Source of the DNA: Acidobacteriota bacterium
GTDB taxonomy: Bacteria > Acidobacteriota > Polarisedimenticolia > J045
Direction of reading: 5' to 3'
Length of the DNA stretch: 64,000 nucleotides
NCBI GenBank assembly: GCA_003696075.1
Contig: RFHH01000164.1
Location: forward strand, 12,749-76,748
Part shown: positions 1 through 12,313 of the stretch, piece after piece
Layout: each line of letters opens with the position of its first letter
Numbering within the stretch: position 1 is the stretch's first letter
Notes under the pieces: generated by a model
Told to the model about the DNA's origin: nothing
Database searches by the model: none
Seen by the model: the letters and a program-made list of their open reading frames with translations, nothing else
Translations under genes and position numbers: made by a program

Positions 1-387
1 GGACTCGTTGCCGCCGCCCACCGCCATGCCGTTCAGCCGGGCGATCGTCACCTTGCCGCTTTTCACGATGCTCTCGATGTAGCGGCTGAACAGGCTCATG
101 TACTTCCAGTAATCCCGCGGGCGCTGCGTGTAGACGGCGGCGTACTCCTTGACGTCGCCTCCGGTGCAGAAGGCCTTGTCTCCCGCTCCGGTGAACACGA
201 TCACCCCGACCTTGTCGTCGTGCGAGGCGTCGGTGAAGGCGGCCGTCAGCTCGCGAAGGGTGTTCGTCGTGTAGGCGTTGTACGCGTGCGGCCGGTTGAT
301 GGTGATCCTCGCCACCATGTCCCGCTTTTCGTAGAGGATATCCTTGAAGTCGAACTCTTCCGCCGGCTTCGAAGCAAAGTACTCCAT
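1..387 (-). CDS. Enoyl-CoA hydratase/isomerase (crotonase) family protein, MenB/BadI-like; N-terminal part only, gene continues off the window
   Basis: The reverse-strand translation MEYFASKPAEEFDFKDILYEKRDMVARITINRPHAYNAY...VIVFTGAGDKAFCTGGDVKEY...NGMAVGGGNE carries crotonase-fold oxyanion-hole motifs. An ATG at 385-387 is preceded by a GGAGGAGGG Shine-Dalgarno sequence. Confidence 0.8.
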   Translation of the reverse strand, partial: MEYFASKPAEEFDFKDILYEKRDMVARITINRPHAYNAYTTNTLRELTAAFTDASHDDKVGVIVFTGAGDKAFCTGGDVKEYAAVYTQRPRDYWKYMSLFSRYIESIVKSGKVTIARLNGMAVGGGNES

Positions 388-408
388 CGGTCGCCCTCCT
401 CCGATTTC

Positions 409-1626
409 TCAGTGCACGGTCACTCGGATCACCAGCGCCGCCGCGCTGTCGCCCGCGGCGCACCCCGTGAACAGGCCGTAACCCCCGCCCGCGCCCGCGA
501 GGTCCTCGATCAGCTCCATCAGGGCGCGCAGACCCGTCGGGCCCTGGGGGTGGCCCCAGATGAGCGAACATCCGTAGCGGTTCATCTTCTCCGGGTCGAT
601 CCCCAGCTCGCGCGCCAGGTAGACGTCGTTGACGGCGAACGGCACGTGGGTCGTCACGGCGGTGAGGTCCGCGACGTCGATGCCCGCCGCCTCGAGGGCC
701 TTCCGCGAGGCGGGAACGTTGGCCATCGGCATCAGCCCCTTGCCGACGCGGGCCTGCGCGAACGCGAGCACGCGGATCTCGATGGCGGGATCGCGGCTCA
801 GCTCCTTGGCAGCCTCCTTGCCGCAAATCAGCATCCCGGCGTTGCCGTCGGCGGGGTAGGTCTGGGTGCCGAAGGTGACCGTTCCTCCGGGAAGAACCGG
901 CTTCAGTTTCTGGAGCCCTTCTCGCGTGGTGGGATAGACCCCTTCGTCTCCCTCCACGGTCGCCACGACCTTCCGCCCGCGGGGATCCCTGACCTCGACG
1001 GGAAGGAGCATGTACCGGCGCTGGAAAGCGGCGCCGTCGGCGAGCGCCCGCTGATATTGCCGGTGGCGCAGCAGCGTGAGCTCCTCCTGTTCCTCGCGGC
1101 TGATGCCGGCCTCCTTCGCCACGTTCTCCGCGGTCTGGATCATCGAGTTCTTGGCGAAGGGGTCGTGACCGAAGCTGTCCAGGACCCAGTCCTCGTGCTC
1201 ACCCGTTCCGCCCGGACCGGCGGGGTTCGGGTAGTAGACGTGCGGGCCGTTGCTCGTGCGGTCGGCGGCCACCGCGAGAAAAACCTTCGACTGGCCGGTA
1301 GCGACCTCCTGGGCGCCCAGGGCGACGCAACGGGCGGACGTCGCGCAGGCCTGGTTGATCGTCGGTCCGGTGAGCGTCTCGAGACCGGCCAGGCCGGCGA
1401 GCCACGGTGCGCCGTAGAACGAATGGTGCGACGGGATCGTCAGCCCCAGACAGAGGCCGTCGATCCGCTTGCGGTCGATCTCTCGCTCCTCGAGCGCCCT
1501 GCGGGTCATCTCCGCGGCGAACGGAATCGGCGGCAGCGTGGCGAAGCTGCCCTGCCATTTGCAGAACGGCGTCGACCAGTAGCCGCCGTAGGGGATGTAG
1601 ACATTGTCGAATGCGGCCACTTTCAC
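409..1626 (-). CDS. Thiolase-family acyl-CoA C-acyltransferase
   Basis: The 405-aa ORF has thiolase hallmarks: an N-terminal nucleophile region (INQACATSARCV) and the C-terminal motifs GHPQGPTG and GCAAGD. Confidence 0.8.
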   Translation of the reverse strand: MKVAAFDNVYIPYGGYWSTPFCKWQGSFATLPPIPFAAEMTRRALEEREIDRKRIDGLCLGLTIPSHHSFYGAPWLAGLAGLETLTGPTINQACATSARCVALGAQEVATGQSKVFLAVAADRTSNGPHVYYPNPAGPGGTGEHEDWVLDSFGHDPFAKNSMIQTAENVAKEAGISREEQEELTLLRHRQYQRALADGAAFQRRYMLLPVEVRDPRGRKVVATVEGDEGVYPTTREGLQKLKPVLPGGTVTFGTQTYPADGNAGMLICGKEAAKELSRDPAIEIRVLAFAQARVGKGLMPMANVPASRKALEAAGIDVADLTAVTTHVPFAVNDVYLARELGIDPEKMNRYGCSLIWGHPQGPTGLRALMELIEDLAGAGGGYGLFTGCAAGDSAAALVIRVTVH

Positions 1627-1638
1627 CCTCCTCCTCGA

Positions 1639-2547
1639 TCACGTGCCCCGTTCCGCCTCCGCGGGGCGCAGCGCCGCGGGTCGGAACTGCTCGCTCATCT
1701 TTTCGATTTTCCGCCGCCCGTAGCGAACCGCCTGGATCTCCGCCGCGATCGCCAGGGCGATCTCCCCGGGCGTTCGCCCGCCGAGATCGAGCCCGATCGG
1801 CGCGTGGACGCGAGCCAGGCGGCGCCGGGCCTCCTCGCTCGTCGCGACCGCCCGGAAGAGCCGCGCGACCTTGGCCCGGCTCCCGATCATGCCCAGGTAG
1901 GCCCAGGGTCGCGGCAAGCAGGCGCGCAGGACCGCCTCGTCCTCGGTGTGCCCGTGTGTGACGATGACCGCGTAGGTCCGCTCGTCGAAGGGCAGTTCCG
2001 CGATCACTTCCTGGAACGGCCCCTCCCGCAGCTCCACCTCCGCGGGAAACCGGTCCCGCACCGCGAAGCCGGGCCGCGGATCGACCACCGTCACGCGGAA
2101 GCCCGCACCCGCGGCGATGGGGGCCAGCGCGCGGCCGATGTGACCGGCGCCGAAGATGAACAGCTTCGGGCGCGGGAGCGCCGGCTGGATGAAGAAGTCG
2201 GTCTTCCCGGTGCAGGCCTTGTCGAGGTTCTGTTCCGGGCCGCCGGAGAAATCGTAGTGGAGGAGCCGGGCCCTTCCGTCCCGCAGCGCCTCGAGGGCCT
2301 GTTCGATGACGAGCAGCTCCAGGCTCCCCCCGCCCACGGTGCCAACGATGCTGCCGTCGGCCCGGACGGCCATGGCGCCGCCCATGCCTCGCGGCGCCGA
2401 ACCTTCCGCGTCGACCACCGTGACGAGAGCGACCGGGCGGCCGGCGTCGGCGAGGCGCACGAACTCGCGGTAGGCGTCCAGTTCGACCTGCTCGCGACCG
2501 TCGGAGATCCGGCGGAGCGGATCGTGCGGATCAACTCGCCCGCGCAT
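1639..2547 (-). CDS. xdhC: XdhC/CoxI-family molybdenum-cofactor insertion accessory protein
   Basis: The motifs VALVTVVDAEGSAPRGMGGAMAV...GTVGGGSLE and the Rossmann-like stretch IFGAGHIGRALA are typical of XdhC. The start was chosen at MRGR; the track ORF extends to 2583. Confidence 0.75.
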   Translation of the reverse strand: MRGRVDPHDPLRRISDGREQVELDAYREFVRLADAGRPVALVTVVDAEGSAPRGMGGAMAVRADGSIVGTVGGGSLELLVIEQALEALRDGRARLLHYDFSGGPEQNLDKACTGKTDFFIQPALPRPKLFIFGAGHIGRALAPIAAGAGFRVTVVDPRPGFAVRDRFPAEVELREGPFQEVIAELPFDERTYAVIVTHGHTEDEAVLRACLPRPWAYLGMIGSRAKVARLFRAVATSEEARRRLARVHAPIGLDLGGRTPGEIALAIAAEIQAVRYGRRKIEKMSEQFRPAALRPAEAERGT

Positions 2548-3184
2548 CCGCCACCTCCCGGCCCTCCAGTGCCCGGCGGACATCCCCGGGACGGTTGAGG
2601 TTGTCCAGGACGGCCCGATCGAGGACCTCGAGCCGCACCGGTGTTCGGCCCCCCGACCGCATCAGCTCGCGCAGGTGTCCCCGGTCGGGGGCCGACGCGA
2701 GCCTCTCGAGCGTCGGGCGGCCCAGGACGACCGGGTGCCCGCCGCGCCCGCGGTAGACCGGCACCACGTCGGCACCGGGCCGCCGCCGCGCCGCACCGGC
2801 GAGGGCGGCGACCGTCTCCGTCGCCACCGCCGGGCAGTCCACCGGCCAGAGCACCAGCGCGAGCGGACGGGTAGCGTGGCCGGCCCGGGTCAGCGCCCAC
2901 CGAGCCGCGAGCCGCACGGAAGTGAAGCGGCCCCGGTCCGCGTGAGGGTTGACGAGGGGGAACCCGCCGGCGCGGAGAGCTTCGATGCGCACGGCCTCGG
3001 CGCCAGGAGCGACCACGACCGCCGGGCGGAGGATCCCCGCCGCGCGGAGCGTGTGCAGGATGGTCCCGAGGAAAGTTCCGCCGTTCCAGGCGACCAGCGG
3101 CTTCGGGACGCCCATGCGTGCCGAGTGGCCGGCGGCGGTGATCGCCGCAAGGACGAGGAGATCGCCGCCCGTGCGGGTTCGCAC
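2531..3184 (-). CDS. MobA/MocA-like molybdenum-cofactor nucleotidyltransferase, probable MCD-forming cytidylyltransferase
   Basis: LLVLAAITAAGHSARMGVPKPL is the N-terminal NTP-transferase motif of the MobA family. A GTG start at 3182-3184 lies 6 nt downstream of GGAGGA and directly after the TetR stop. The location next to XdhC suggests a MocA-type role. Confidence 0.6.
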   Translation of the reverse strand: MRTRTGGDLLVLAAITAAGHSARMGVPKPLVAWNGGTFLGTILHTLRAAGILRPAVVVAPGAEAVRIEALRAGGFPLVNPHADRGRFTSVRLAARWALTRAGHATRPLALVLWPVDCPAVATETVAALAGAARRRPGADVVPVYRGRGGHPVVLGRPTLERLASAPDRGHLRELMRSGGRTPVRLEVLDRAVLDNLNRPGDVRRALEGREVADARAS

Positions 3185-3186
3185 CG

Positions 3187-3831
3187 TCAGCTCCTCCCCC
3201 GCGCCACCGCGCGCACGCCGTGGAGCACGAGATCGACGACCTCGTCGGCAAGAGCGTCGACCGGGCCGTCCCGTTCGGGGTCGAACCACATGAAAATCCA
3301 GTTCAGGCTGCCGAAGACGAACAGCGTGGCGTGCCGGACGGCCCGGTCCGTTTCCGGGTTCCCGCCGTCACGCCCCATCAGCTCCGCGATCACGCCGGCC
3401 GCCAGGCGGTAGTACCGGCGCCGAACCGCCTCGATCTCGCGGTACGCCTCCTCGCTCAGCGACTCGAGCTCGAAGGTGCAGACCTTCAGTTCGTTGAAAT
3501 GCTCGACGAAGAAGCCGAGATGGCCCCTGACGAACCGGCGGAGCCGTTCCTCCGCTGTTCCGCCGCGGGCGAGTGCCTCCTGCTGCTGCTCCAGGAGCGA
3601 GGTGAACGTCCTCAACTGGATCTGGAACAGCAGATCCTCTTTGCTCTTGAAGTAGTAGTACATGCCGGCCAGGCTGTAGCCGGTGGCCCGCGCCACGTCG
3701 CGGATCGTCGTCTGGCTGAAGCCCTGCCGCGCCATCAGCTCGGCCGCGGCGGCGAGGAGGCGGTCGAGCTTCTGCTCCGTCCGCGACGGCTCCGCCTCGC
3801 CCTGTGGCGTCGGGCCCGCATCCTGGCTCAT
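3187..3831 (-). CDS. TetR/AcrR-family transcriptional regulator
   Basis: The N-terminal helix-turn-helix RLLAAAAELMARQGFSQTTIRDVARATGYSLAGMYYYF and the 214-aa size fit the TetR family. Confidence 0.85.
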   Translation of the reverse strand: MSQDAGPTPQGEAEPSRTEQKLDRLLAAAAELMARQGFSQTTIRDVARATGYSLAGMYYYFKSKEDLLFQIQLRTFTSLLEQQQEALARGGTAEERLRRFVRGHLGFFVEHFNELKVCTFELESLSEEAYREIEAVRRRYYRLAAGVIAELMGRDGGNPETDRAVRHATLFVFGSLNWIFMWFDPERDGPVDALADEVVDLVLHGVRAVARGRS

Positions 3832-3847
3832 GCCGCCCCCCCGGCCG

Positions 3848-6703
3848 TCATCGCTTCTTCTTCTCCAGCTCGGCCAGCCCGCGCAGGATCTTCTCCGGCG
3901 TGATCGGCAGCGACGTCACCCTCACACCGGTCGCGTCGTAGATGGCGTTGGCGATCGCGGGGATCACGGGTAGCAGGCATCCCTCCCCGATCTCCTTGGC
4001 GCCGAAGGGCCCGCGCGGCTCGTAGCTCTCCACCGCCTTCGTCATGATCTTCGGGGTCTCGCAGATCGTCGGGACCAGATAATCGTGAAGGGTGGGATTG
4101 ATCAGCTCGCCCCGCTCGTCGGCCAGCGTGTCCTCGAGAAGGGTCTCTCCGAGGCCCATGACGATGCCGCCCTCGACCTGGCCGTGGAACGTGACCGGGT
4201 TGATCACGGTACCGGCGTCGCTGAAGTCGGTGAAACGGTCCACCTGGACGTAACCCGTCTCGAGGTCGACCGTCACTTCCGCCACCGCGGTGGAGAAACT
4301 GTAGGCCGGCGAGGTGCCGACGGTCCCGCCCTTGAAATCCCCGCCGAGGTTCTTCGGCGGTTGGTAGTAGCCGGTGCCCACCACCGGTCCGCTCTGGGAG
4401 AAGGCGATCCGGGCCGCCTCGGCCCATTCCATGCCGACGTCGGGGTGCTCCGCGACGAAGATCCGCCCGTTTCTCGCCACCAGCGCCCCGGGGTCGCAGC
4501 CAAGCTTCCGGCCGGCCACCTGCAGCAGCTTCCGGCGGACCTCGGCTGCCGCCATGCGGACGGCATTGCCACCCATCAGCGTGACGCGGCTCGAGTACGA
4601 GCCGAGATCCGTGGGGCTCAGGACCGAATCGCAGTCCACCAGCCATACCCGGTCGTACGGGATCCCGAGCTCCTCGGCGGCGATCTGCGTCAGGATGGTG
4701 TCGCAACCCTGGCCGATCTCGGCGGCCGCGATGTGAAGCGAGACCCCCGTGCCGTCCTCGTGGACGCGAATCATCGCGTTCGAGTGGGGGAAATCGGAGC
4801 GGTAGATCGGATACCCGGCACCGGAGACGAAACCGCCGCAGCCGACGCCGATTCCCTTTCCGCGCGGCAGCTTGCCCTTCTTCTCCCGCCAGCCGCTCGC
4901 CTCCCTCGCCCGTTCGAGGGTCGCCTTGAACTCGCAGGAGGAGATATCGAGCGCGTTGCAGGTGCGCGTGTTCGGCTCCATCGCGTTGCGCAGCCGGATC
5001 TCGAAGGGATCGAGCCCGAGATCCTCCGCGATCATGTCGAGGAGGCACTCGAACGCGAACCTCGGCTGCGGAACGCCGTGCCCGCGCATGGCCCCACTCG
5101 CGGGCAAGTTCGTGTAGACGCGGAACCCGTCGTACTTGAAATTCGGGATCTTGTACAGCGTCGGCAGCATCGAGCCGGCGTAGTAGGCGGTGATCACCCC
5201 GAACGACGTGTAGGCCCCTCCGTCGAGGATGGTCCGCGACTGGACGGCGGTGATCGTGCCGTCCTTCTTGACGCCGACCTTGAGATCGACGATCTGCTTG
5301 TGGCGCCCGCGGAAGTGGAGGAACATCTCCCTCCGCGAGTACTTCATCATCACGGGCCGGCCGGTTCTCTTCGCCAGAATCGCGGCGCAGAAGTCGAGCG
5401 GTGTCGTCTCCGCCTTCCCTCCGAAGCCGCCGCCCACCGCCGGCTTGATCACCCGGATGTCGCCTTTCGGCACCCCGAGAACGCGGGAGAGCATGTGCTG
5501 CACGTAGTGCGGCACCTGCGTCGCCGACCAGAGCGTCAGCTTGGAGCCGTGGTGTTCCCAGCGGGCGAGCGCCGCGTGCGGCTCGATCGGCGCCTGGTAG
5601 GTGCGGTTCCCGACGAACCTCTCCTCCCGGATGTGGTCGGCCTCGGCGAAGCCGCGCTCCACGTCGCCGAAGTGCCACTCCACCCGCGTGTTGATGTTCC
5701 GCGCGAACCGGGGGTTCTCCGGGTGGATCAGCGGGGCGTCGGGCTCCATCGCCTTCTCGGCGTCGAACACCGCCGGGAGCTCCTCGTACTCCACCTCGAT
5801 CAGCTCGAGGGCCCTCTCGGCCGTCTCCTCGTCGACGGCCGCCACGGCGGCGACCTCGTCGCCGACGTAACGGACACGGTCCTTGGCCAGAACGTGCTCG
5901 TCGTACCTCGCCGGGCTCACGCCGTAGGTCACGTCGGGGACGTCCGCGCCGGTGATCACGTCGACCACGCCGGGGAGCTCCCGCGCCCGGCTCGTGTCGA
6001 TACGCTTGATCAATCCGTGCGGGATGGGGCTGCCCAGGATCTTCCCGTAGAGCATCCCGGGCAGCCGGAGATCCGCCGTGTACTTCGCCCGCCCGGTGAC
6101 CTTGTCCGGCGCGTCGTAGCGCGGCACGCCCCGGCTGACCACCTCCAGATCGCGCTCCTGGTCGCGTTCCCGATCGTCGAGGGGCGCGGTGTCGAGCGGT
6201 TCCTTCGCGAACGAGCGCCAGTCCCGAACGGCCCGGATGATGCGCTCGTACGTGCCGCACCGGCACAGGTTGCCCGCGAGCGCCTCCCGGATCTCCTCCT
6301 CGCTCGGGTCGGGATTCCGGTCGATCAAGGCCTTCGCGGCCATGATCATCCCCGGCGTGCAGAAACCGCACTGAAGCGCACCGTGCTTGACGAATGCCTT
6401 CTGCAACGGGTGGAGATCGCCGCCCCGCGACAGGCCCTCGATCGTCACGACCTCCGATCCCTCGGCATCGGCGGCGAGGACCAGGCAGGAGGCGACCGGA
6501 TCGCCGTTCATCAGGACGGTGCACGCCCCGCAGTCGCCCATGCCGCACCCGTCCTTCGTCCCGGTGAGACCCAGCTCCTCCCTCAGGAGCTGCTGGAGCG
6601 TGGTGTTGGGCTTCACCGCGAGCGTGTGCGGCTGTCCGTTGACCGTCAGCGAGACCATCACCCGCCCGGTCGCCTGGCCCCCGTCCGTCGGACGAACGCT
6701 CAT
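3848..6703 (-). CDS. Xanthine-dehydrogenase-family molybdoenzyme subunit with an N-terminal [2Fe-2S] domain fused to the molybdopterin-binding large domain
   Basis: After MSVRPTDGG the protein has plant-type and four-helix 2Fe-2S motifs ([11 protein letters not shown]; CGFCTPGM; CRCGTY), then continues without a stop into an aldehyde-oxidase/CoxL-like Mo domain. The ATG at 6701-6703 overlaps the upstream gene's stop (ATGA). The upstream part of the 1399-aa track ORF is run-on in another gene's region. Confidence 0.85.
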
Positions 6704-7578
6704 CGTCCCGCCTCCACCGCCCGAGCCGACGCCTCCTCCAGCGCCCTCCGGGTGAGCACCTCCACCAGCCGCCGCCGGAATTCCGCCGAGCCGCGCACGT
6801 CGCAGATCGGCCGCGCCTCCTCCGCGGCGGCCCGCGCCGCCTTGGCGAAGATCTCCGGGCCGGGCCGCCCTCCCTCGAGTTCGCGCGCGGCGGCGCGGGC
6901 GAGCAGCGGCGTCGGGGCGACCGCACCGAGGGCGATGCGCGCGCCCGCGATCGTTCCCGAGGAGATCACCAGGCGGACGGCCACCGACGCCACGGCGACC
7001 GCCGAGCCTCGCCGGAGACCGAACCGCTGGAAGGACGCCCCCGCGCCCGCCGGCTGGGGCGGTATCCGGATCTCGGCGAGGATCTCGCCTTGCCGGAGAG
7101 CGGTCTGCCGCGGCCCGGTGAACAGATCCTCGGCGGGGATCTCCCGCGAGCCCTCCGGCCCGGCGATCCGCACCGAGGCCTCGCCCACCAGGCAGGGCGG
7201 CGGCGTGTCGGCACACGGGACCGCGCCGCAGAAGTTGCCGCCGATCGTCGCCCGGCTCCGGATCTGCTCGCTGCCGAGAAGCGCGGCGGCTTCGGCGAGC
7301 ACCGGGAACTGTTCGCGGACCAGAGGTGAGCGCGCCACGTCCCGGATCGTCGTCAGCGCGCCGATGACGAGCGTCCCGCTCTCGACGCGGATTCCGCGCA
7401 GCTCGTCGAGACGCGCGAGGGAGATGACATCGCTCGGCACCGGCTCGCCGGGCTTGCGCCGGACGAGAAGTTCCGTGCCCCCCGCCAGAACACGCGCCCG
7501 GTCGCCGAGTTCGCGCGCGAGTCTGCAGGCCTCGGCGAGACTCTCCGGGCGGTGGTAGCGCTCGATCGGCAACCGCAT
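6700..7578 (-). CDS. FAD-binding medium subunit (CoxM/XdhB-like) of the molybdoenzyme
   Basis: MRLPIERYHRPESLAEACRLARELGDRARVLAGGTELL is the canonical FAD-binding N-terminus of CO-dehydrogenase / xanthine-dehydrogenase medium subunits. The start is at the internal Met of the track ORF, and the stop overlaps the next gene's ATG. Confidence 0.85.
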   Translation of the reverse strand: MRLPIERYHRPESLAEACRLARELGDRARVLAGGTELLVRRKPGEPVPSDVISLARLDELRGIRVESGTLVIGALTTIRDVARSPLVREQFPVLAEAAALLGSEQIRSRATIGGNFCGAVPCADTPPPCLVGEASVRIAGPEGSREIPAEDLFTGPRQTALRQGEILAEIRIPPQPAGAGASFQRFGLRRGSAVAVASVAVRLVISSGTIAGARIALGAVAPTPLLARAAARELEGGRPGPEIFAKAARAAAEEARPICDVRGSAEFRRRLVEVLTRRALEEASARAVEAGR

Positions 7579-7630
7579 GGCGCAGGCTCCCACCGGCCCC
7601 ACCGCGGGGCGGACGCGGCGAAGACTCGAA

Positions 7631-7640
7631 CGAACGTTCG
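7631..7640. promoter_or_regulatory. Perfect 10-bp palindrome CGAACGTTCG in the divergent intergenic region; candidate operator, possibly for the locus TetR
   Basis: The sequence equals its own reverse complement. It lies about 50 nt upstream of the FAD-subunit start and within a 190-bp divergent promoter region. Confidence 0.3.
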
Positions 7641-7700
7641 ACAGGATAGGCTTTCGAGTAACCGCCCGCAACAGGGCGGATCGTTGCGTCCGGGCGCGGG

Positions 7701-7729
7701 TTGACAGGGTTGGAACGGCGGGTTATCCA
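7701..7729 (+). promoter_or_regulatory. Sigma-70-like promoter candidate for the BNR gene (TTGACA, 17-nt spacer, TATCCA)
   Basis: A consensus -35 hexamer lies at 7701-7706 and a -10-like TATCCA at 7724-7729, about 38 nt upstream of the ATG at 7768. Confidence 0.35.
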
Positions 7730-7767
7730 GGGGCGGGGAACCGGGTGGAGTCGGCGGGAGACTCTCG

Positions 7768-9816
7768 ATGAAAAAGCTGTGGCCCTTGGCGGCCGGGCTT
7801 TTCGGCCTGGGGTCGGCCGCGGTGTCGGCGCAGACCTATGTGGACGAAGCGCGGACCGTCGCCATCGACGTTCGCCGCGGGGCGGACGAACTGGTGGACT
7901 ACGCCGCCCTCGTGCGGATCGGCCCCTGGGACGACCGCAACTACGACCTGACGCGAGCCGACCTCGCGCTCCTTCCCCCGAACGAGGCGGAGCTGCGCTC
8001 GCCCATCCCCGCCTTCTTCCGGGTGGGATTGCGCCGTGCGCTTCCATCCCTAAGGGGCGATCCGGCGGCGCGCTACCCGCTGAGCGCGTTCAACGCCTTC
8101 CGCCTCAGGTTCGGCGGCTACCTCGTCGACGGCCGGCTCTACACCGAAGCCCACCGGAAAGGCGGCCGTTACTACGTGGTTCTCGAAAAGCCCGCGGCCG
8201 CCGGGCCCACGGGATCCGGGAACGACTTCGTCTCGGGCGACGTCCGGGTGACCTCCCCGGAGGGAGCAGCGGAGTCGGCGATCGCCGTGGATCCCGCCGA
8301 CACCAACCGACTCGTGGCCGGGACCAACGGGCCGAACGGTGGGCAACGCATGCACTACTCGACGGACGGGGGGGCGAGCTGGACACAGGTGGAGCTGCCG
8401 CAAGGCGGAACCTGCTGTGACCCCACCGTCGAGTGGTCTTCGGACGGGCGGTACGCCTACACCGCTACGCTCGGCGGCTGCTTCTTTTTCTGCCGCTTGT
8501 GGTTCTACCGCTCGGACGACGGCGGACTCACCTGGAACGGCCTCGAGAACGTGACGCCGGGGAACCCGCGCCGGGAGATCAGCAACAACGCCGACCGGGA
8601 ATACCTCCACGTCGACCGGTCGGCAGCGTCGCCCTACAAGGACAGCATCTACCTCATGTATCACGAGGGAAACGTGATGCAGTTCGCCCGATCGACCGAT
8701 TTCGGGAACACCTGGTCCACGCTGTCCTTTTCGAACGCGTCGGCCGACCGGGGCATCGCAGGGGACATCGCCACCGACCGCGGGGGAACGATCTACTACG
8801 CCTGGCCCGCCTTCAACAGCCGGACGATCCGCCTCCGCGTGTCGCACGACGGCGGGGCGACTTTCGGACCGGTATCGGTCGTCGCCGACACCAATGCCTC
8901 GTTCTCCTACCCGCTACCGTCGCAGGAGAGCCGCGAGGTCGCCGTCTACCTGGCGATGGATGCCGATACCTCGAGCGGACCCTACACCGACTCGGTCTAC
9001 ATCGCCTGGCCGGACACCACGGCGCCGCCCTCCGGCGTTCCTGCCGACAACCACTCGCAGATCCACGTCGCGTACTCGCGGGACGGTGGCGCCACCTGGC
9101 ACGAGTCGATCCCTCACGAGACGGCCGACGTGCTCACGGTCGACCGGTGGCAGCCATTCCTCGCGGTGGGTCCCGACGGCACCGTGCACGTGATCTACAA
9201 CGACACCCGGATCGGGGACCGGACCAGCTCCGATGTCTTCTACAGCTACTCCACGGACGGGGCTCGGACATGGTCCGCCCCCCGGCGCGTCACGGGGGCG
9301 ACCTCCCCCAACATCGCGGACGGCTTCGAGTTCGGCGACTACTCCGGACTCGACATCGTGATGAACGACTTGATCGCCATCTTCACCGACAACCGGAACG
9401 AGGCGGGCGGCGGGGGGGACTCCATCGACGTCTACGCCTCCGGGATCGCGCCGGGAGGTGGGGGTGGCGGCGCCGGCCGGATACCCGGCGCGCGGGGTGT
9501 CTCCGGAGGCGCCCCGCTCACGGTCGCCCGGAGCGGTGGGGACCTCCAGCTCGACTGGTCGCCCGCCTGCGGCGCCGGTTCCGACTACGGCGTCTACGAG
9601 GGGGAACTCGGCCTTCCAGACAGCGCCGCCCCCGTGCAGTGCACGACGGGAGGCCAGACCTCGGCCACGATCACGCCCTCGATGGGACAGCGGTTCTACC
9701 TCGTCGTGGCCCAGTCCGGTGGCAATGAGGGTTCCTACGGGCGCCGGAGCGACGACACCGAACGCCCACCCGCCGCGAACGCCTGCCTGCCCCAGGCCAT
9801 CGGCACCTGCCCGTAG
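7768..9816 (+). CDS. Secreted BNR/Asp-box repeat protein (sialidase / glycosyl-hydrolase-like) with a C-terminal Cys-containing domain
   Basis: The protein has a signal peptide (MKKLWPLAAGLFGLGSAAVSA) and at least five Asp-box repeats: STDGGASW, SDDGGLTW, SHDGGATF, SRDGGATW and STDGARTW. The C-terminal 100 aa are homologous to the C-terminus of the M23 protein at 13923-15452. Confidence 0.8.
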   Translation: MKKLWPLAAGLFGLGSAAVSAQTYVDEARTVAIDVRRGADELVDYAALVRIGPWDDRNYDLTRADLALLPPNEAELRSPIPAFFRVGLRRALPSLRGDPAARYPLSAFNAFRLRFGGYLVDGRLYTEAHRKGGRYYVVLEKPAAAGPTGSGNDFVSGDVRVTSPEGAAESAIAVDPADTNRLVAGTNGPNGGQRMHYSTDGGASWTQVELPQGGTCCDPTVEWSSDGRYAYTATLGGCFFFCRLWFYRSDDGGLTWNGLENVTPGNPRREISNNADREYLHVDRSAASPYKDSIYLMYHEGNVMQFARSTDFGNTWSTLSFSNASADRGIAGDIATDRGGTIYYAWPAFNSRTIRLRVSHDGGATFGPVSVVADTNASFSYPLPSQESREVAVYLAMDADTSSGPYTDSVYIAWPDTTAPPSGVPADNHSQIHVAYSRDGGATWHESIPHETADVLTVDRWQPFLAVGPDGTVHVIYNDTRIGDRTSSDVFYSYSTDGARTWSAPRRVTGATSPNIADGFEFGDYSGLDIVMNDLIAIFTDNRNEAGGGGDSIDVYASGIAPGGGGGGAGRIPGARGVSGGAPLTVARSGGDLQLDWSPACGAGSDYGVYEGELGLPDSAAPVQCTTGGQTSATITPSMGQRFYLVVAQSGGNEGSYGRRSDDTERPPAANACLPQAIGTCP

Positions 9817-10542
9817 GCCGCCCCGGCGCCGAAGTCGATTCGCAGAGCGATTCCCCCGGGAAGCGGCTCCCACCGCCACCGGAGCCGGGCCGGCGGCGGC
9901 CGCGGCGTGAAGTGGCTGACCTTCCGCCGGGCGTGCGCCTCGCACAGCGCCCGGCCCGCGCCGAGGCCGGCCATCATCCCGAGGAAGGCATCGGGCGCCC
10001 AATGTTTGTCCTGATCGATTCGCTGGTAGGCCGTGAGCGCTGCCCCGGCGTAGAGCAGGCCGAGCGTGCCGCGGCGAATGGCGCGATGGGCGCGGCCTTC
10101 ACCGGCGCGGGGCAGCAGGTATTGGCACCGGAGCGGCCACACGAGCGAAGCCGCGAGCGCGGCGTCTCCGGAGACCCCGTGGCCACCGGCGCGCAGGAAG
10201 CGGATCGCCTCCCCCCTCTCGGGCCTCTCCGTTGCGAGGACGAGTTGGCCGGCACCGGCCAGCATCTGTGAGAGCGCCGCCGACTCCAGCAGAAGCGTTG
10301 CCGTTTCCCGTTCGCGGTCCTCATGGGTTGCGAGCGACGCGGCCCAGGCGGCAGCGGCGCCGAGCGGGGCGACCGCACCTTTTCCCAGCGTCCTCACGTC
10401 AGTCAGAAAGCGCGTGAGTCCCGGGCTCGCGTGATCGCGCGCGAAAGACCGGATCCCGTCACGGGCGAGGTACAGCGCGCCGGTGCCGGCGGCGATCCAC
10501 AGCCAGCGCCGCCGCCGCGCGCGGCCGGGGTGAATCAGCATC
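9735..10542 (-). CDS. Putative PAP2-superfamily (phosphatidic acid phosphatase type 2-like) membrane protein
   Basis: Only the C-terminal 268 aa of the 657-aa track ORF look protein-like. Loose PAP2 motifs are present (RAGGHGVSGD; YQRIDQDKHWAPD). The upstream part is Arg/Pro/Gly junk. The 3' end overlaps the BNR gene by about 80 nt. Confidence 0.4.
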
Positions 10543-11660
10543 GAGGCCAGATCGCGCGCGTCGGCGCGCACCGCCCGGAGTCCGTGCGACGCGTCCGTTC
10601 GCATGGGCGGCGCGTCCGAAAGTCCCGGGAGCGACGCGGCGAGCGCGGCGATCGACGTGGCCACGGCTCGCCCGACGCCGGCGAACGACGGGCGGGGAGG
10701 CGGGCCCCACCGCCGACACGGCCCCTCGGCCCCGCTCCAGCTTGGTGGCGGGCCGCCGATGGCGCCTTTCCGCGTCCCGGCCATCTCGACGATTCCGGCC
10801 GGCGTCTCGCCGCCTCTCCCGCGTGCCGGCGGGCCGATCGTACAGCGAGTCGGCAGCGGAGGCGCCATGCCGGGGACTCCCCCCGGCCGCGTGCGCAACC
10901 CGGCTGCGCCATCGGCGGGCACGCGCACCCGATGATGAGGCGGGTGGTTCAGCGACCACAGCGGATGGCCCCGCCGCTTCCGACACTTCTTCGGCGACAC
11001 CGTGGCCGGCGGCACCCGCGGGCGCCGCCGGATCACGCGGGAACGGACTGGGAGGCCGCTGCTCGAGGAGGGGCGGCCGCGGAAGCCGCCTTCAGGGGCC
11101 GGGCCCATCGGCCGTCGATCCGGCGGACCGCATCGACCGGGGGTGGCAGGGGCGCCGCCCGCCTCGAGGACACTCCGGGTTGCCCCCAAGCGGTCCCACC
11201 GGCCCGCGCGCCGTCGGCCTCGCCTCGGGACGCGCCCGCCGGGAACCGCCCGCGAAGGCGGCAGGAAGGCCGGACGCCCACGGAAGGGATCGAACGTCAG
11301 GCGGAGAGGGCTCGTCCGAGCCCGGCACCCCCTCGTCCAACACGTTGAAACGCGGGTGGTTCGCCGAGTCGAACGTTTGCCGGATGGATCGGCGCGCGGT
11401 GCCGCCGCACACTGCGCGTGGTACCGGACCCTTGAGTCAGGCGGGTGTGGGCCCGTCGGGTTTCGCCCTCGACTCAGCCAGTACCGGCATGCTGCGCTCC
11501 CCAACGTGCCACTGCCCTGGCTCGCGGCTGGCTCGCCCGGGGGGAAGCGGGACGGAGGAGAAGCCTCCGGCCGCTCCGACGGATCGCAGCTCCGGTCGCC
11601 GACGGGCGCCGCACCCGCCGTCGTTCCTTTCCCCTCCTCTGCAACCCTCCCGGAACGAAT

Positions 11661-11683
11661 GACCCGCCCCCCGGGGGCGGGTC
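11661..11683. terminator. Perfect GC-rich hairpin (9-bp stem GACCCGCCC/GGGCGGGTC), candidate terminator downstream of the LuxR gene
   Basis: An inverted repeat lies about 22 nt past the stop of the minus-strand LuxR gene. The U-tract is weak. Confidence 0.3.
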
Positions 11684-11704
11684 CGTCTGTTCGGGAGGGA
11701 TGCC

Positions 11705-12313
11705 TCATCCCCTTCGCTTCCCCTCCCTGCGCTCCGCGGCGCCCGTGCCGGTGGGCGCGGGCGACCGGTCACCGCCCGGCGCCCCCGCTCCTTCGGTGCG
11801 GACCGGAAGGAGGTCCTCGAGGAAGAAGGCCGACAGCTCGGACCGCCCGCTGAGCCCCGCCTTGAGATAGAGGGAGCGGGCTTGCTGGCGCACGGTCCGC
11901 TCGCTCGTGTCGCGCAGGGCCGCGATCTCCTTGTGACTCAACCCCTTGAGAAGGAGCAGCCCGATCTCCATCTCGGCGGGCGTGAGCTTCCAGCGCCGGA
12001 ACTGCCGCTCGATCGCCTCGCCGAGCCCGCGGAGAATCTCCCGGCTCTCCTCGCGCCACCTCCTGGCCTCTTCCCGCGCTGCGTCGAGATCCCGCTCCAG
12101 CAGCCGGGCGGCCTCCCGGGCATCGTCGAGTCGCCGCCAGATCAGCCCGAAGCCGAAGGCGGCCGAAACCATCAGGACCGCCTCCATGAGGACGTGCCAC
12201 TTCGTGACCACCCCCACATACTCCGTCAGCAGGTCGATGGTCACGAGGATGCCGATCAACGCGAAGATCCCGAGGAGGACCGCCGAGGTCCGCCGGTCGC
12301 CGGGTTCAGCCAT
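11705..12313 (-). CDS. Membrane-anchored LuxR-family (HTH) transcriptional regulator
   Basis: Two N-terminal hydrophobic helices (AVLLGIFALIGILVTIDLL; AVLMVSAAFGFGLIW) are followed by a LuxR-type helix-turn-helix (LTPAEMEIGLLLLKGLSHKEIAALRDTSERTVRQQARSLYLK). Confidence 0.8.
   Translation of the reverse strand: MAEPGDRRTSAVLLGIFALIGILVTIDLLTEYVGVVTKWHVLMEAVLMVSAAFGFGLIWRRLDDAREAARLLERDLDAAREEARRWREESREILRGLGEAIERQFRRWKLTPAEMEIGLLLLKGLSHKEIAALRDTSERTVRQQARSLYLKAGLSGRSELSAFFLEDLLPVRTEGAGAPGGDRSPAPTGTGAAERREGKRRG

What the first reader, a model, noticed from the sequence alone, without database searches (positions are those of the whole stretch)
1..7640. Mo-hydroxylase operon with a fused FeS-Mo subunit, MCD-cofactor accessory genes, thiolase and a BadI/MenB-type crotonase: candidate (hetero)aromatic acyl-CoA catabolic module
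The 2Fe-2S domain is fused in-frame to the Mo large subunit, a Mop-like architecture, yet a separate FAD subunit is retained and translationally coupled (ATGA). XdhC and a MobA/MocA-like nucleotidyltransferase imply a dinucleotide (probably MCD) cofactor. Co-operonic thiolase, BadI/MenB-like crotonase and a TetR regulator suggest the substrate is an aromatic or heterocyclic acyl-CoA, for example 4-hydroxybenzoyl-CoA, furoyl-CoA or nicotinate-type, rather than a purine. A perfect palindrome CGAACGTTCG at 7631-7640 in the divergent promoter is a plausible TetR operator.
Basis: partly seen in the sequence, partly recalled or inferred. Interest (0 to 1): 0.5.

Follow-up and report, generated by a model that had tools for sequence, protein, structure and literature searches.

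The report
Fused, loop-less 4-hydroxybenzoyl-CoA-reductase-like molybdenum operon
An Acidobacteria operon encodes a molybdenum enzyme related to, but distinct from, the 4-hydroxybenzoyl-CoA reductase of anaerobic aromatic breakdown: its iron-sulfur and molybdenum subunits are fused, the ferredoxin-accepting [4Fe-4S] loop is missing, and a conserved repressor site precedes it. It is a real, widespread, untested variant of a known enzyme type.

Summary
Seven tightly packed minus-strand genes occupy window 1-7578: FAD subunit, in-frame 2Fe-2S/Mo fusion (ATGA overlap), TetR, MocA-like transferase, XdhC, thiolase, and a crotonase cut by the window edge.

The fusion is not an artefact: all 120 listed homologues (73-80% identical) share it. 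The Mo domain's best characterised match is Thauera 4-hydroxybenzoyl-CoA reductase alpha (HcrA, 1RM6), not xanthine or CO dehydrogenase. It is not an HcrA orthologue, though. Identity is 42%, the TIGR03194 score is 960 against about 1300 for true HcrA (cutoff 994.55), and it shares 4 of 110 HcrA signature positions. The FAD subunit lacks the roughly 38-residue loop carrying three of HcrB's four [4Fe-4S] cysteines.

In seven related loci the gene pair sits with anaerobic benzoyl-CoA pathway genes, and in two it directly follows benzoyl-CoA reductase genes (bcrCBAD).

It recurs at these clusters' promoters in three phyla and matches the PaaR-type TetR consensus.

Most likely function: reductive dehydroxylation of 4-hydroxybenzoyl-CoA or a related aryl-CoA, without the usual ferredoxin entry point. 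Substrate and direction are inferred. It is a new variant of a known kind, of moderate interest.

The parts
7627..7640 (-). Candidate operator: 6-2-6 inverted repeat CGAACG-TT-CGTTCG.
   Evidence: The sequence is shown. The same motif (GAACG-NN-CGTTC) is found at the promoters of homologous clusters: L082 (two sites), L083, L085, L091 and L098 (two sites), with one-mismatch versions in L001 and L097. Only one unrelated hit occurs in 1.7 Mb of fetched loci. It matches the PaaR (TetR family) consensus CNAACGNNCGTTNG (PMC6651687). Protein binding was not tested.
7643..7648 (-). -10-like hexamer TATCCT immediately upstream of the operator (inferred promoter element).
   Evidence: The same TATCCTG(T/C) precedes the operator in L085 and L097. 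TATGCT or TAACAT, with a TTGACA 17 nt upstream, precedes it in L082. The strict sigma-70 consensus scan found nothing in 7500-7800, so this is inference only.
6700..7578 (-). FAD-binding medium subunit (292 aa), CoxM/CutM-like, lacking the [4Fe-4S] loop of HcrB.
   Evidence: Pfam FAD_binding_5 and CO_deh_flav_C. The best PDB match is CutM 1FFU_C at 182 bits; HcrB 1RM6_B gives only 90 bits, with a 38-residue register shift. The alignment shows a 38-column gap exactly where the L088 subunit carries the Cys-rich insert. HcrB Cys122/138/146/155 are mapped. TIGR03195 gives 124 bits against a cutoff of 404.55.
3848..6703 (-). Fused subunit (951 aa): two [2Fe-2S] domains at residues about 17-161, a linker of about 30 residues, then the Mo-pterin large-subunit domains at about 193-942. 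Its start overlaps the FAD gene's stop (ATGA).
   Evidence: Pfam Fer2, Fer2_2, Ald_Xan_dh_C, MoCoBD_1 and MoCoBD_2. TIGR03194 HcrA gives 960.3 bits against a cutoff of 994.55. 1RM6_A gives 590.8 bits over residues 193-941. An identical protein, P0001, is recorded from an Acidobacteria MAG, and all 120 listed homologues are fused. The FeS cysteine motifs (CGMGDCGAC...C, QCGFC, CRC), GGGFGGK, TQVPH, AMRGHG and the catalytic Glu in GAKEIGEG are visible in the translation.
3187..3831 (-). TetR-family regulator (214 aa) inside the operon, of the acyl-CoA-responsive FadR/PfmR-like type.
   Evidence: Pfam TetR_N and TetR_C_24. The best NCBIfam hits are the SACE_7040 family and Bacillus FadR. The best PDB matches are 3VPR (80.7 bits) and B. 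subtilis FadR 1VI0/3WHB. It is 55% identical to the TetR at the same position in L083.
2531..3184 (-). MocA-like molybdenum-cofactor nucleotidyltransferase. The GTG start 3 nt after the TetR stop is inferred.
   Evidence: Pfam NTP_transf_3. NCBIfam: DVU_1551 family 102.8, MocA/YgfJ 69.8, MobA 27.0 bits, all below their cutoffs. L085 has the same gene order.
1639..2547 (-). XdhC-family Mo-cofactor insertion chaperone. The start is ATG 2547 or ATG 2583.
   Evidence: Pfam XdhC_CoxI and XdhC_C. NF045664 'XdhC family aldehyde oxidoreductase maturation factor' gives 231 bits.
409..1626 (-). Thiolase (405 aa) with catalytic Cys/His/Cys motifs present. Probably part of the lower, beta-oxidation-like part of the pathway.
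   Evidence: Pfam Thiolase_N and Thiolase_C. TIGR01930 gives 209 bits against a cutoff of 240.55. It is 69% identical to the thiolase at the same position in L083.
1..387 (-). N-terminal 129 aa of a crotonase of about 318 aa in the MenB/BadI/Oah subgroup, cut by the window edge.
   Evidence: Pfam ECH_1. TIGR03200 Oah 121, BadI 92, MenB 85-92 bits on the fragment. It is 82% identical to the full-length L083 orthologue, which scores Oah 190, BadI 187 and MenB 186, all far below their cutoffs.

Best explanation
This is the start of an operon of the anaerobic benzoyl-CoA degradation regulon in an Acidobacteria bacterium. The operon is probably repressed by a TetR-family protein.

Enzyme. The first two genes encode a two-polypeptide xanthine-oxidase-family molybdenum enzyme: an FAD subunit, plus a fusion of the 2x[2Fe-2S] and Mo-pterin (probably MCD) subunits. 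MocA-like and XdhC proteins encoded in the same operon would mature the cofactor.

Proposed reaction. The enzyme most likely works like 4-hydroxybenzoyl-CoA reductase. It would bind a hydroxylated (or otherwise substituted) benzoyl-CoA and remove the substituent reductively, giving benzoyl-CoA. Benzoyl-CoA would then go through benzoyl-CoA reductase, hydratase, Had, a ring-opening crotonase, an SDR and a thiolase.

Electron path. Electrons would run FAD -> [2Fe-2S] -> [2Fe-2S] -> Mo -> substrate. The FAD subunit lacks the [4Fe-4S] loop through which ferredoxin feeds the Thauera enzyme. The electron entry must therefore differ, for example NAD(P)H at the flavin as reported for UcdCFO.

Regulation. 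The in-operon TetR is proposed to bind the 14-bp operator just downstream of the -10 region and to be released by an aryl-CoA or acyl-CoA intermediate.

Shown: gene content, the fusion, absence of the loop, family placement, synteny, and operator conservation.

Inferred: substrate, direction of catalysis, electron donor, and which regulator binds the operator.
For: (1) Family placement. The best characterised relative of the Mo domain is HcrA: TIGR03194 960 bits against 601 for XdhA, and 1RM6_A 591 bits. The catalytic Glu (HcrA E726) and Tyr326 equivalents are conserved in the alignment.

(2) Context in seven homologous loci:
- Had equivalogs pass TIGR03201 in L085 (460), L097 (455) and L098 (430); the cutoff is 338.65.
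- In L083, BcrC, B, A and D all pass their equivalog cutoffs directly upstream, co-oriented and behind the same operator.
- In L099, BcrB and BcrD pass, BcrA scores 542 against 578, the first HGD-D gene is cut by the locus edge and was not scored. A CoA ligase lies in the same gene string.
- L098 has a ferredoxin gene and 2-oxoacid:ferredoxin oxidoreductase genes.

(3) Synteny. The window's TetR, thiolase and crotonase are 55%, 69% and 82% identical to those following the Mo genes in L083.

(4) Loop loss. It is shown in 9 of 9 FAD subunits of this family, against HcrB Cys122/138/146/155.

(5) Precedent. UcdCFO is a loop-less xanthine-oxidase-family dehydroxylase. NAD(P)H drove its activity in E. 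bolteae lysates and enhanced it in the heterologous host, where a strict NADH requirement could not be shown (PMC11760930).

(6) Cofactor. 4-HBCR carries MCD (PMC12771579), and the transferase here is MocA-like.

(7) Operator. It is conserved at the promoters of these clusters, including a ferredoxin/oxidoreductase operon in L098. It matches the PaaR consensus. The TetR belongs to the acyl-CoA-responsive group.
Against: - It is not an HcrA orthologue. Identity is 42%. It forms its own 50%-identity cluster and its own clade in a neighbour-joining tree.
- True HcrA proteins score 1300-1340 on TIGR03194. This family scores 929-960, in the range (747-933) of other uncharacterised HcrA-like clades.
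- It shares 4 of 110 HcrA-clade signature positions, no more than unrelated clades do.
- A loop-less CoxM-like flavoprotein is the normal state of hydroxylases that run in the oxidative direction.
- bcrCBAD lies within 10 kb in only two of seven related loci.
- The CoA ligase in L099 is not of the benzoate / 4-hydroxybenzoate ligase family.
- Another fused clade (P0242, L088) keeps the loop and sits beside benzoyl-CoA-reductase-type genes (two HGD-D and two BcrAD_BadFG genes) and 2-oxoacid:ferredoxin oxidoreductase genes. It is therefore a better candidate for a straightforward 4-HBCR.
- No biochemical data exist for any member. I found no paper on this family.
Confidence: 0.5

Rival explanations
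1. The enzyme runs in the usual oxidative direction of the family. It would be a water-dependent hydroxylase of an aromatic, heteroaromatic or alicyclic acyl-CoA, by analogy with 2-furoyl-CoA dehydrogenase HmfABC. Electrons would leave through the flavin to NAD+ or another acceptor, and the hydroxylated product would enter the neighbouring beta-oxidation-like enzymes.
For: - The FAD subunit is CutM/CoxM-like and lacks the [4Fe-4S] loop that defines the 'inverted' electron flow of 4-HBCR.
- The Mo domain fails the HcrA equivalog cutoff and the signature test.
- The core conserved partners are an SDR, a thiolase with a DUF35 protein, a hydratase and an alcohol dehydrogenase. They could process a hydroxylated ring.
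- The closest outgroup (P0241, 60% identical) is not in an aromatic context.
Against: - The gene pair follows oxygen-sensitive, ATP-dependent benzoyl-CoA reductase genes in the same gene string in L083 and L099.
- It co-locates with Had equivalogs specific for the dearomatised benzoyl-CoA product.
- No known step of that pathway needs a Mo hydroxylation.
- UcdCFO shows that a loop-less enzyme of this family can work reductively.
- There are no hmfD/hmfE-like partners, although HmfA itself could not be compared.
Confidence: 0.27
2. It is a true functional 4-hydroxybenzoyl-CoA reductase orthologue. On this view it is simply HcrCAB with a different gene order and a fusion, still fed by ferredoxin, and nothing is mechanistically different.
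For: - NCBI and JGI name many members '4-hydroxybenzoyl-CoA reductase subunit alpha'.
- The TIGR03194 score is close to the cutoff.
- Ferredoxin and 2-oxoacid:ferredoxin oxidoreductase genes lie nearby in L098 and L083 and, in L098, share the operator.
Against: - Three of the four [4Fe-4S] ligands and the whole loop are absent in 9 of 9 family members.
- The beta and gamma models also fail: TIGR03195 gives 124 against 404.55, and TIGR03193 gives 180 against 257.8.
- There is a gap of about 340 bits to true HcrA on TIGR03194.
- Only 4 of 110 signature positions are shared.
Confidence: 0.15
3. It is an ordinary xanthine, aldehyde or CO dehydrogenase that merely lies next to fatty-acid beta-oxidation genes, or the fusion is an assembly artefact.
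For: Generic domain content. XdhA-type models score 590-600 bits.
Against: - All of those models are far below their cutoffs and below the HcrA score.
- The fusion and the neighbourhood are conserved across phyla and across independent assemblies.
- The frame is continuous.
Confidence: 0.03

Closest known systems
4-hydroxybenzoyl-CoA reductase HcrCAB of Thauera aromatica (PDB 1RM6/1SB3); HbaBCD of Rhodopseudomonas palustris
   Same: - Xanthine-oxidase-family Mo / 2x[2Fe-2S] / FAD enzyme.
- It is the best characterised match of the Mo domain.
- The catalytic Glu and Tyr326 equivalents are kept.
- MCD-type maturation genes are present.
- The genomic association is with the anaerobic benzoyl-CoA pathway.
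   Different: - Identity is only 42%. It forms a separate clade and falls below the equivalog cutoff.
- The gamma and alpha subunits are fused.
- The gene order is beta then gamma-alpha, instead of gamma, alpha, beta.
- The beta subunit lacks the 38-residue loop with Cys138/146/155, so there is no [4Fe-4S] cluster and no known ferredoxin entry point.
UcdCFO urolithin 9-dehydroxylase of Enterocloster (PMC11760930)
   Same: It is a xanthine-oxidase-family enzyme that removes a phenolic OH reductively. Its FAD subunit has no [4Fe-4S] loop. The proposed electron path runs from NAD(P)H through FAD and two [2Fe-2S] clusters to MCD.
   Different: It has three separate subunits. Its substrate is a free polyphenol, not a CoA thioester. 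It comes from a gut Firmicute. I made no direct sequence comparison here.
P0242-clade fused enzyme (locus L088), uncharacterised
   Same: It has the same FeS-Mo fusion (949 aa, 50% identical) and lies next to two HGD-D and two BcrAD_BadFG genes (benzoyl-CoA-reductase-type by Pfam only) and a MocA-like gene.
   Different: Its FAD subunit (328 aa) keeps the HcrB loop with all four cysteines. The gene order is gamma-alpha then beta. 2-oxoacid:ferredoxin oxidoreductase genes are adjacent.
Fused Mo/FeS subunit with a separate FAD subunit, as modelled by NCBIfam TIGR03313 and TIGR03312 (E. coli XdhD/YgfM type, from memory); Desulfovibrio gigas aldehyde oxidoreductase Mop
   Same: The FeS domains are fused in front of the Mo domain. 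In the TIGR03313/TIGR03312 type a separate FAD subunit is also present, so the architecture itself is not new (one search lists both models).
   Different: Scores are far below cutoffs: TIGR03313 459 against 1102, TIGR03312 58 against 241.5, Mop-type NF045668 530 against 1100. Mop has no FAD subunit. The substrates and genomic contexts are different.
2-furoyl-CoA dehydrogenase HmfABC (PMC3223595)
   Same: It is the only other known xanthine-oxidase-family enzyme acting on an aryl-CoA thioester, and it has a separate FAD subunit.
   Different: It works in the oxidative direction in an aerobic pathway, with hmfD (ligase) and hmfE (thioesterase) as conserved partners. Those partners are absent here. 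The sequence relationship could not be tested.
PaaR (TTHA0973) and related acyl-CoA-responsive TetR repressors of Thermus thermophilus; MbdR of Azoarcus
   Same: They are TetR-family repressors of aromatic acyl-CoA pathways. The window's operator CGAACGTTCGTTCG fits the PaaR consensus CNAACGNNCGTTNG at all ten specified positions. The TetR here carries the TetR_C_24 / FadR-like ligand domain.
   Different: Similarity to the solved TetR structures is modest (no more than 81 bits). The PaaR sequence itself was not compared. Binding and effector are untested. Some homologous clusters have the operator but no TetR gene within 10 kb.

Membership tests
Xanthine oxidase / Mo-hydroxylase family | Mo-pterin large-subunit domains (Ald_Xan_dh_C, MoCoBD_1, MoCoBD_2), two [2Fe-2S] domains, and an FAD_binding_5 flavoprotein | tested here: met
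   All Pfam domains score above their gathering cutoffs. The FeS cysteine motifs and the catalytic Glu are visible in the translation.
4-hydroxybenzoyl-CoA reductase (HcrCAB/HbaBCD) | Alpha subunit reaches the curated equivalog score (TIGR03194, 994.55 bits) | tested here: not met
   The window protein scores 960.3 and its L083 homologue 928.8. True HcrA proteins score 1302-1342, and other HcrA-like clades 747-933.
4-hydroxybenzoyl-CoA reductase (HcrCAB/HbaBCD) | Beta subunit carries the roughly 40-residue insertion binding a [4Fe-4S] cluster (Cys122, 138, 146, 155 in HcrB) | tested here: not met
   There is a 38-column gap. Only the Cys117 and Cys122 equivalents remain (GGNFCGAVPC|ADTPP). The same holds in 9 of 9 family members. 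TIGR03195 gives 124 against 404.55.
4-hydroxybenzoyl-CoA reductase (HcrCAB/HbaBCD) | Shares clade-specific residues of proven HcrA proteins | tested here: not met
   It shares 4 of 110 signature positions; unrelated clades share 3-13. Caveat: the HcrA set is a tight clade, so many of these positions may reflect lineage rather than function.
4-hydroxybenzoyl-CoA reductase (HcrCAB/HbaBCD) | Genomic association with the anaerobic benzoyl-CoA pathway | tested here: met
   bcrCBAD lies immediately upstream in L083 (all four subunits pass) and in L099 (BcrB and BcrD pass). Had equivalogs are present in L085, L097 and L098. The window itself shows only the thiolase and crotonase before it ends.
4-hydroxybenzoyl-CoA reductase (HcrCAB/HbaBCD) | Catalyses ferredoxin-dependent reductive dehydroxylation of 4-hydroxybenzoyl-CoA | not testable with these tools
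   This needs an enzyme assay.
Mop-type aldehyde oxidoreductase (D. gigas) | FeS-Mo fusion with no FAD subunit; NF045668 equivalog score | tested here: not met
   The fusion is present, but a translationally coupled FAD subunit is encoded. NF045668 gives 530 against 1100.
Xanthine dehydrogenase / aerobic CO dehydrogenase | Equivalog scores of the XdhA/PucD or CoxL models | tested here: not met
   XdhA 601 against 780, PucD 496 against 784, CoxL 357 against 991.
[quoted passage not shown] | Equivalog scores of TIGR03200, TIGR03210 and TIGR01929 | tested here: not met
   The full-length orthologues in L083 and L001 score 177-190 on all three models, against cutoffs of 343-468. The protein is in the same subgroup but is not an assignable member. 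The window copy is a 129-aa fragment.
PaaR/FadR-like acyl-CoA-responsive TetR repressors | TetR HTH plus TetR_C_24-type ligand domain, and a 14-bp CNAACG-NN-CGTTNG-type operator at the regulated promoter | tested here: met
   Domains. Operator match and conservation.
PaaR/FadR-like acyl-CoA-responsive TetR repressors | The protein binds the operator and is released by an acyl-CoA | not testable with these tools
   This needs EMSA or footprinting with candidate CoA esters.
MocA (Mo-cofactor cytidylyltransferase) | TIGR03310 equivalog score | tested here: not met
   69.8 against 186.45. It is still closer to MocA than to MobA (27.0), and closest to the DVU_1551 family (102.8 against 315). The MCD inference therefore rests on family analogy.

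The most novel reading that the evidence does not exclude
The loop-less fused enzyme is a distinct, widespread aryl-CoA-converting Mo enzyme of soil and sediment phyla (Acidobacteriota, Gemmatimonadota, Planctomycetota). It would do one of two things.

(a) It dehydroxylates 4-hydroxybenzoyl-CoA without ferredoxin. Electrons would come from NAD(P)H, or from the frequently co-located ApbA / HGD-D / ATP-dependent activase module.

(b) It carries out a reaction for which no enzyme is known. Examples, from my memory of the literature, are reductive dehydroxylation of 3-hydroxybenzoyl-CoA or reductive deamination of 4-aminobenzoyl-CoA.
Probability: 0.25. Interest if true: 0.7.

Novelty: new variant of a known kind. 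Interest (0 to 1): 0.45.

Why it matters
4-Hydroxybenzoyl-CoA reductase is the textbook case of a xanthine-oxidase-family enzyme running backwards. Its extra [4Fe-4S] cluster is taken as the device that makes this possible.

This family is large: a single search found 120 clusters at 73% identity or more, from several phyla common in soil and sediment. It sits in the same pathway but has lost that device and fused two subunits.

If it still dehydroxylates, the [4Fe-4S] loop is not essential, and the question of the electron donor becomes directly testable. If it does something else, metagenomic surveys that count these genes as 'hcrA' (as NCBI and JGI often annotate them) misjudge the potential for anaerobic degradation of phenolics.

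The conserved 14-bp operator gives a simple marker for finding the whole regulon.

Tried and rejected
- Looking up the window's own contig by exact protein failed. Both the window protein and P0001 are 'not on record', so the part of the operon beyond window position 1 could not be read.
- The single genome-contig scan was taken over by the generic FeS peptide FCTPGMIM. It returned only 32-45% relatives. At least one of these (L012) has adjacent genes rather than a fusion, so those loci were not used as evidence for fusion.
- The single metagenome scan with the FAD subunit gave 8 loci, of which 5 were 51-60% identical. Three of those five have an upstream coding stretch instead of the operator, recalling the aminotransferase context of the P0241 clade in L086 (my reading, not domain-checked).
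- Literature searches for a fused or loop-less Hcr, for PcmRST details, and for Acidobacteria or Gemmatimonadetes 4-HBCR found nothing specific. The 2004 structure paper is not in the library, and one guessed PMC id for a Mo-enzyme review was not held, so no published list of substrate-channel residues was available.
- HmfA could not be compared because no sequence or model was available. PcmR and HbaC were not placed in the tree.
- The strict sigma-70 scan found no promoter in 7500-7800.
- I first estimated about 50% identity to HcrA from the HMMER display. The proper column count gives 42%.
- I considered whether the operator occurs only where a TetR gene is present. This was rejected: L097 and L098 have the site without a nearby TetR gene.
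- Structure prediction was not run. It would not have given ligand contacts.
- The rest of the window (13.9-44 kb sampled) encodes a peptidase, an anthranilate-synthase-like protein, and glycosyltransferase and polysaccharide-synthesis genes. None relate to the finding.

Full report
**1. What is in the sequence**

The region is about 70% G+C, so raw ORF lists are full of spurious frames. Third-position GC analysis picks one frame per stretch, all on the minus strand from 7578 down to the window start. Translation and domain scans give seven genes:

| Gene | Coordinates (minus strand) | Size |
|---|---|---|
| FAD subunit | 7578..6700 | 292 aa |
| 2x[2Fe-2S] + Mo fusion | 6703..3848 | 951 aa |
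| TetR | 3831..3187 | 214 aa |
| MocA-like NTP transferase | about 3184..2531 | |
| XdhC | about 2547..1639 | |
| Thiolase | 1626..409 | 405 aa |
| Crotonase | 387..<1 | first 129 aa only |

The gaps between genes run from an overlap of about 17 nt to 21 nt. The FAD stop and the fusion start overlap as ATGA. The TetR gene therefore lies inside the operon. The divergent neighbour at 7768-9816 is a BNR/sialidase-like protein, and its hydrophobic N-terminus suggests secretion. The sampled remainder of the window (13.9-44 kb) is unrelated: peptidase, glycosyltransferase and polysaccharide genes.

**2. The fusion is real and common**

An identical protein (P0001) is on record from an Acidobacteria MAG, on a 78.8-kb contig. 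The 120 best database clusters are 73-80% identical and 922-977 aa long, and all carry FeS plus Mo domains. They come from Acidobacteriota, Gemmatimonadaceae, Planctomycetes and Eiseniibacteriota assemblies. Many are annotated '4-hydroxybenzoyl-CoA reductase subunit alpha'. In the library clustered at 50% identity, the window protein is itself the representative of its cluster.

**3. Family placement of the Mo domain**

The best curated model is TIGR03194 (HcrA): 960.3 bits against a cutoff of 994.55. XdhA models give about 600 bits and CoxL models about 360-380. The best solved structure is Thauera 4-HBCR alpha, 1RM6_A, at 591 bits.

It is nevertheless not an HcrA orthologue:
- Calibration shows that true HcrA proteins score 1302-1342 on TIGR03194. 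Several other uncharacterised HcrA-like clades score 747-933.
- Identity to 1RM6_A is 42% over 737 aligned columns.
- A neighbour-joining tree puts the window protein with P0241 (60%) and P0245 (51%), apart from the HcrA clade. Both clades lie inside one HcrA-like superclade. The tree is a simple distance tree without support values.
- There are 110 positions that are at least 95% conserved in the HcrA clade and rare elsewhere. This family shares 4 of them, no more than unrelated clades do. The HcrA set is a tight clade, so this shows non-membership rather than a different chemistry.

The general catalytic features are present: GGGFGGK, the Gln of TQVPH, and the Glu aligned with HcrA E726.

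**4. The FAD subunit lacks the [4Fe-4S] loop**

Its best structural relatives are CutM and CoxM. HcrB matches weakly, with a 38-residue register jump. The HcrB sequence around the cluster was recovered through an alignment. It shows Cys122, Cys138, Cys146 and Cys155, which I recall as the [4Fe-4S] ligands reported in the 2004 structure paper.

An alignment of six FAD subunits shows that the subunit of locus L088 keeps a 38-residue insert with all four cysteines. The window protein and its relatives go straight from GGNFCxAVPC to ADTPP, so three of the four ligands are gone. Translations from four further loci show the same, making 9 of 9 members. PMC11760930 confirms independently that this loop is the distinguishing feature of the Thauera beta subunit.

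**5. Genomic context elsewhere**

Seven loci carrying close homologues were read.

Recurrent partners are a FabG-like SDR, a thiolase (either the 403-aa type seen in the window or an SCP-x type with a DUF35 protein), a 252-260-aa hydratase, a MenB/BadI/Oah-like crotonase of about 320 aa, and a Zn-alcohol dehydrogenase. That dehydrogenase passes the Had equivalog cutoff in L085, L097 and L098 (430-460 bits against 338.65).

In L083 (Gemmatimonadaceae), BcrC, B, A and D all pass their equivalog cutoffs. They lie immediately upstream, co-oriented, with the operator in front of them. In L099, bcrCBAD-like genes, a CoA ligase, an ApbA protein, an HGD-D protein, an activase, the FAD subunit and the fusion form one gene string. 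There BcrB and BcrD pass, BcrA scores 542 against 578, and the first gene is cut by the locus edge.

The window's TetR, thiolase and crotonase are 55%, 69% and 82% identical to the genes following the Mo genes in L083. The window operon is therefore the same unit.

**6. The operator**

The 10-mer alone is weak: 15 of 100 shuffles contain it. The conserved element is 14 bp, CGAACG-NN-CGTTCG (window 7627-7640).

- It lies just downstream of a -10-like hexamer in the window, in L082 (two promoters), L083, L085, L091 and L098. One-mismatch versions occur in L001 and L097.
- In L091 and L098 the spacer is AT.
- In L098 a second site precedes a ferredoxin / 2-oxoacid:ferredoxin oxidoreductase operon.
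- In 1.7 Mb of fetched DNA, GAACG-NN-CGTTC occurs 9 times. Eight of these are at such promoters and one is in an unrelated locus (L038). My rough estimate of the chance expectation is about 1.6.
- The motif fits CNAACGNNCGTTNG, the operator of the TetR-family repressor PaaR of Thermus (PMC6651687).
- The TetR here has the FadR-like TetR_C_24 domain. Its closest solved relatives are 3VPR and B. subtilis FadR. From memory, 3VPR is Thermus PfmR, another phenylacetyl-CoA / acyl-CoA-responsive repressor.

That this particular TetR binds the site is inferred. Two loci have the site but no TetR gene within 10 kb.

**7. Mechanism**

The most economical reading is a 4-HBCR-like reductive dehydroxylase feeding benzoyl-CoA into the co-encoded pathway, with a different electron entry. 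UcdCFO shows that a loop-less enzyme of this family can dehydroxylate a phenol, with NAD(P)H proposed as the donor. 4-HBCR carries MCD, which is consistent with the MocA-like and XdhC genes.

The main rival is ordinary oxidative hydroxylation of some acyl-CoA. A CoxM-like flavoprotein and the failure of all HcrCAB membership tests favour it. The tight linkage to benzoyl-CoA reductase and Had argues against it.

The P0242 clade (L088) is fused but keeps the loop. It sits beside benzoyl-CoA-reductase-type genes and 2-oxoacid:ferredoxin oxidoreductase genes. This shows that fusion and loop loss are separate events, and that the window's family is the more derived one.

**8. Novelty**

The fused FeS-Mo plus separate FAD layout is known in general: NCBIfam pairs TIGR03313 with TIGR03312. 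Databases already label these genes as 4-HBCR-like. I found no paper describing this family, its loop loss or its operator.

It is best filed as a new variant of a known kind.

Noticed in passing
L001 17712-20823; L082 17757-20920; L083 17449-22639; L085 18148-21194; L099 6095-9108: A ketopantoate-reductase-like (ApbA) domain travels with these Mo clusters. It is usually fused to an HGD-D (2-hydroxyacyl-CoA dehydratase / benzoyl-CoA reductase superfamily) protein, and is followed by one or two BcrAD/BadFG ATPase 'activases' and sometimes a second HGD-D protein. In L083 and L099 it occurs alongside the bcrCBAD genes. The HGD-D parts score closer to HadB than to BcrB, and all are far below cutoffs. 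Its function is unknown. It could be an ATP-driven reductase or dehydratase, or conceivably an electron-delivery module.
   Followed up: partly
L098 1067-1078 and 9098-9109: The same operator core (GAACG-NN-CGTTC) precedes both the FAD/Mo operon and a ferredoxin plus 2-oxoacid:ferredoxin oxidoreductase operon about 8 kb away. This suggests one regulon that includes a low-potential electron-donor system.
   Followed up: partly
L088 10001-13833: A different fused FeS-Mo clade (P0242, 50% identical) is followed by a 328-aa FAD subunit that keeps all four HcrB [4Fe-4S] cysteines. It sits beside benzoyl-CoA-reductase-type genes (two HGD-D, two BcrAD_BadFG), a Zn-alcohol dehydrogenase and 2-oxoacid:ferredoxin oxidoreductase genes. 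It is probably a fused but otherwise conventional 4-HBCR.
   Followed up: partly
window 7216-7233 (FAD subunit residues about 116-121, GNFCGAVPC) and the same motif in L001, L082, L083, L085, L097-L099: Two cysteines aligning with HcrB Cys117 and Cys122 are conserved in every loop-less member, although the other three cluster ligands are gone. This may be a remnant of a loop-bearing ancestor.
   Followed up: no
L097 6630-8036: In a Planctomycetes MAG the MocA-like transferase and XdhC are fused into one 468-aa protein directly after the Mo gene.
   Followed up: no
window 7768-9816 (+): The divergent neighbour is a 682-aa BNR/Asp-box (sialidase-like beta-propeller) protein. Its hydrophobic N-terminus looks like a signal peptide, and it has a Gly-rich stretch near the C-terminus. 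It is unrelated to the operon.
   Followed up: no
window 9735-11708 (-): A long ORF with weak, ambiguous codon-position GC signal. The N-terminal two thirds are rich in Pro, Arg and Gly. Only the C-terminal third looks like a membrane protein. The true gene is probably much shorter than the ORF.
   Followed up: no
window 11705-12313 (-): A small protein with N-terminal hydrophobic segments and a C-terminal stretch that resembles a LuxR/GerE-type helix-turn-helix by eye. No domain scan was run.
   Followed up: no
window 21303-43954: An anthranilate-synthase-like chorismate-binding protein is followed by a polysaccharide biosynthesis region: several GT4 glycosyltransferases, a flippase, a UDP-GlcNAc 2-epimerase, a DegT aminotransferase and a beta-helix protein.
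   Followed up: no
L086 4523-12244: The closest outgroup (P0241, 60% identical) has a loop-less FAD subunit, XdhC, MocA-like, ThiS/ThiF and molybdate-transporter genes and two aminotransferases, but no aromatic-pathway genes. Close relatives of this family are therefore used in other contexts.
   Followed up: no
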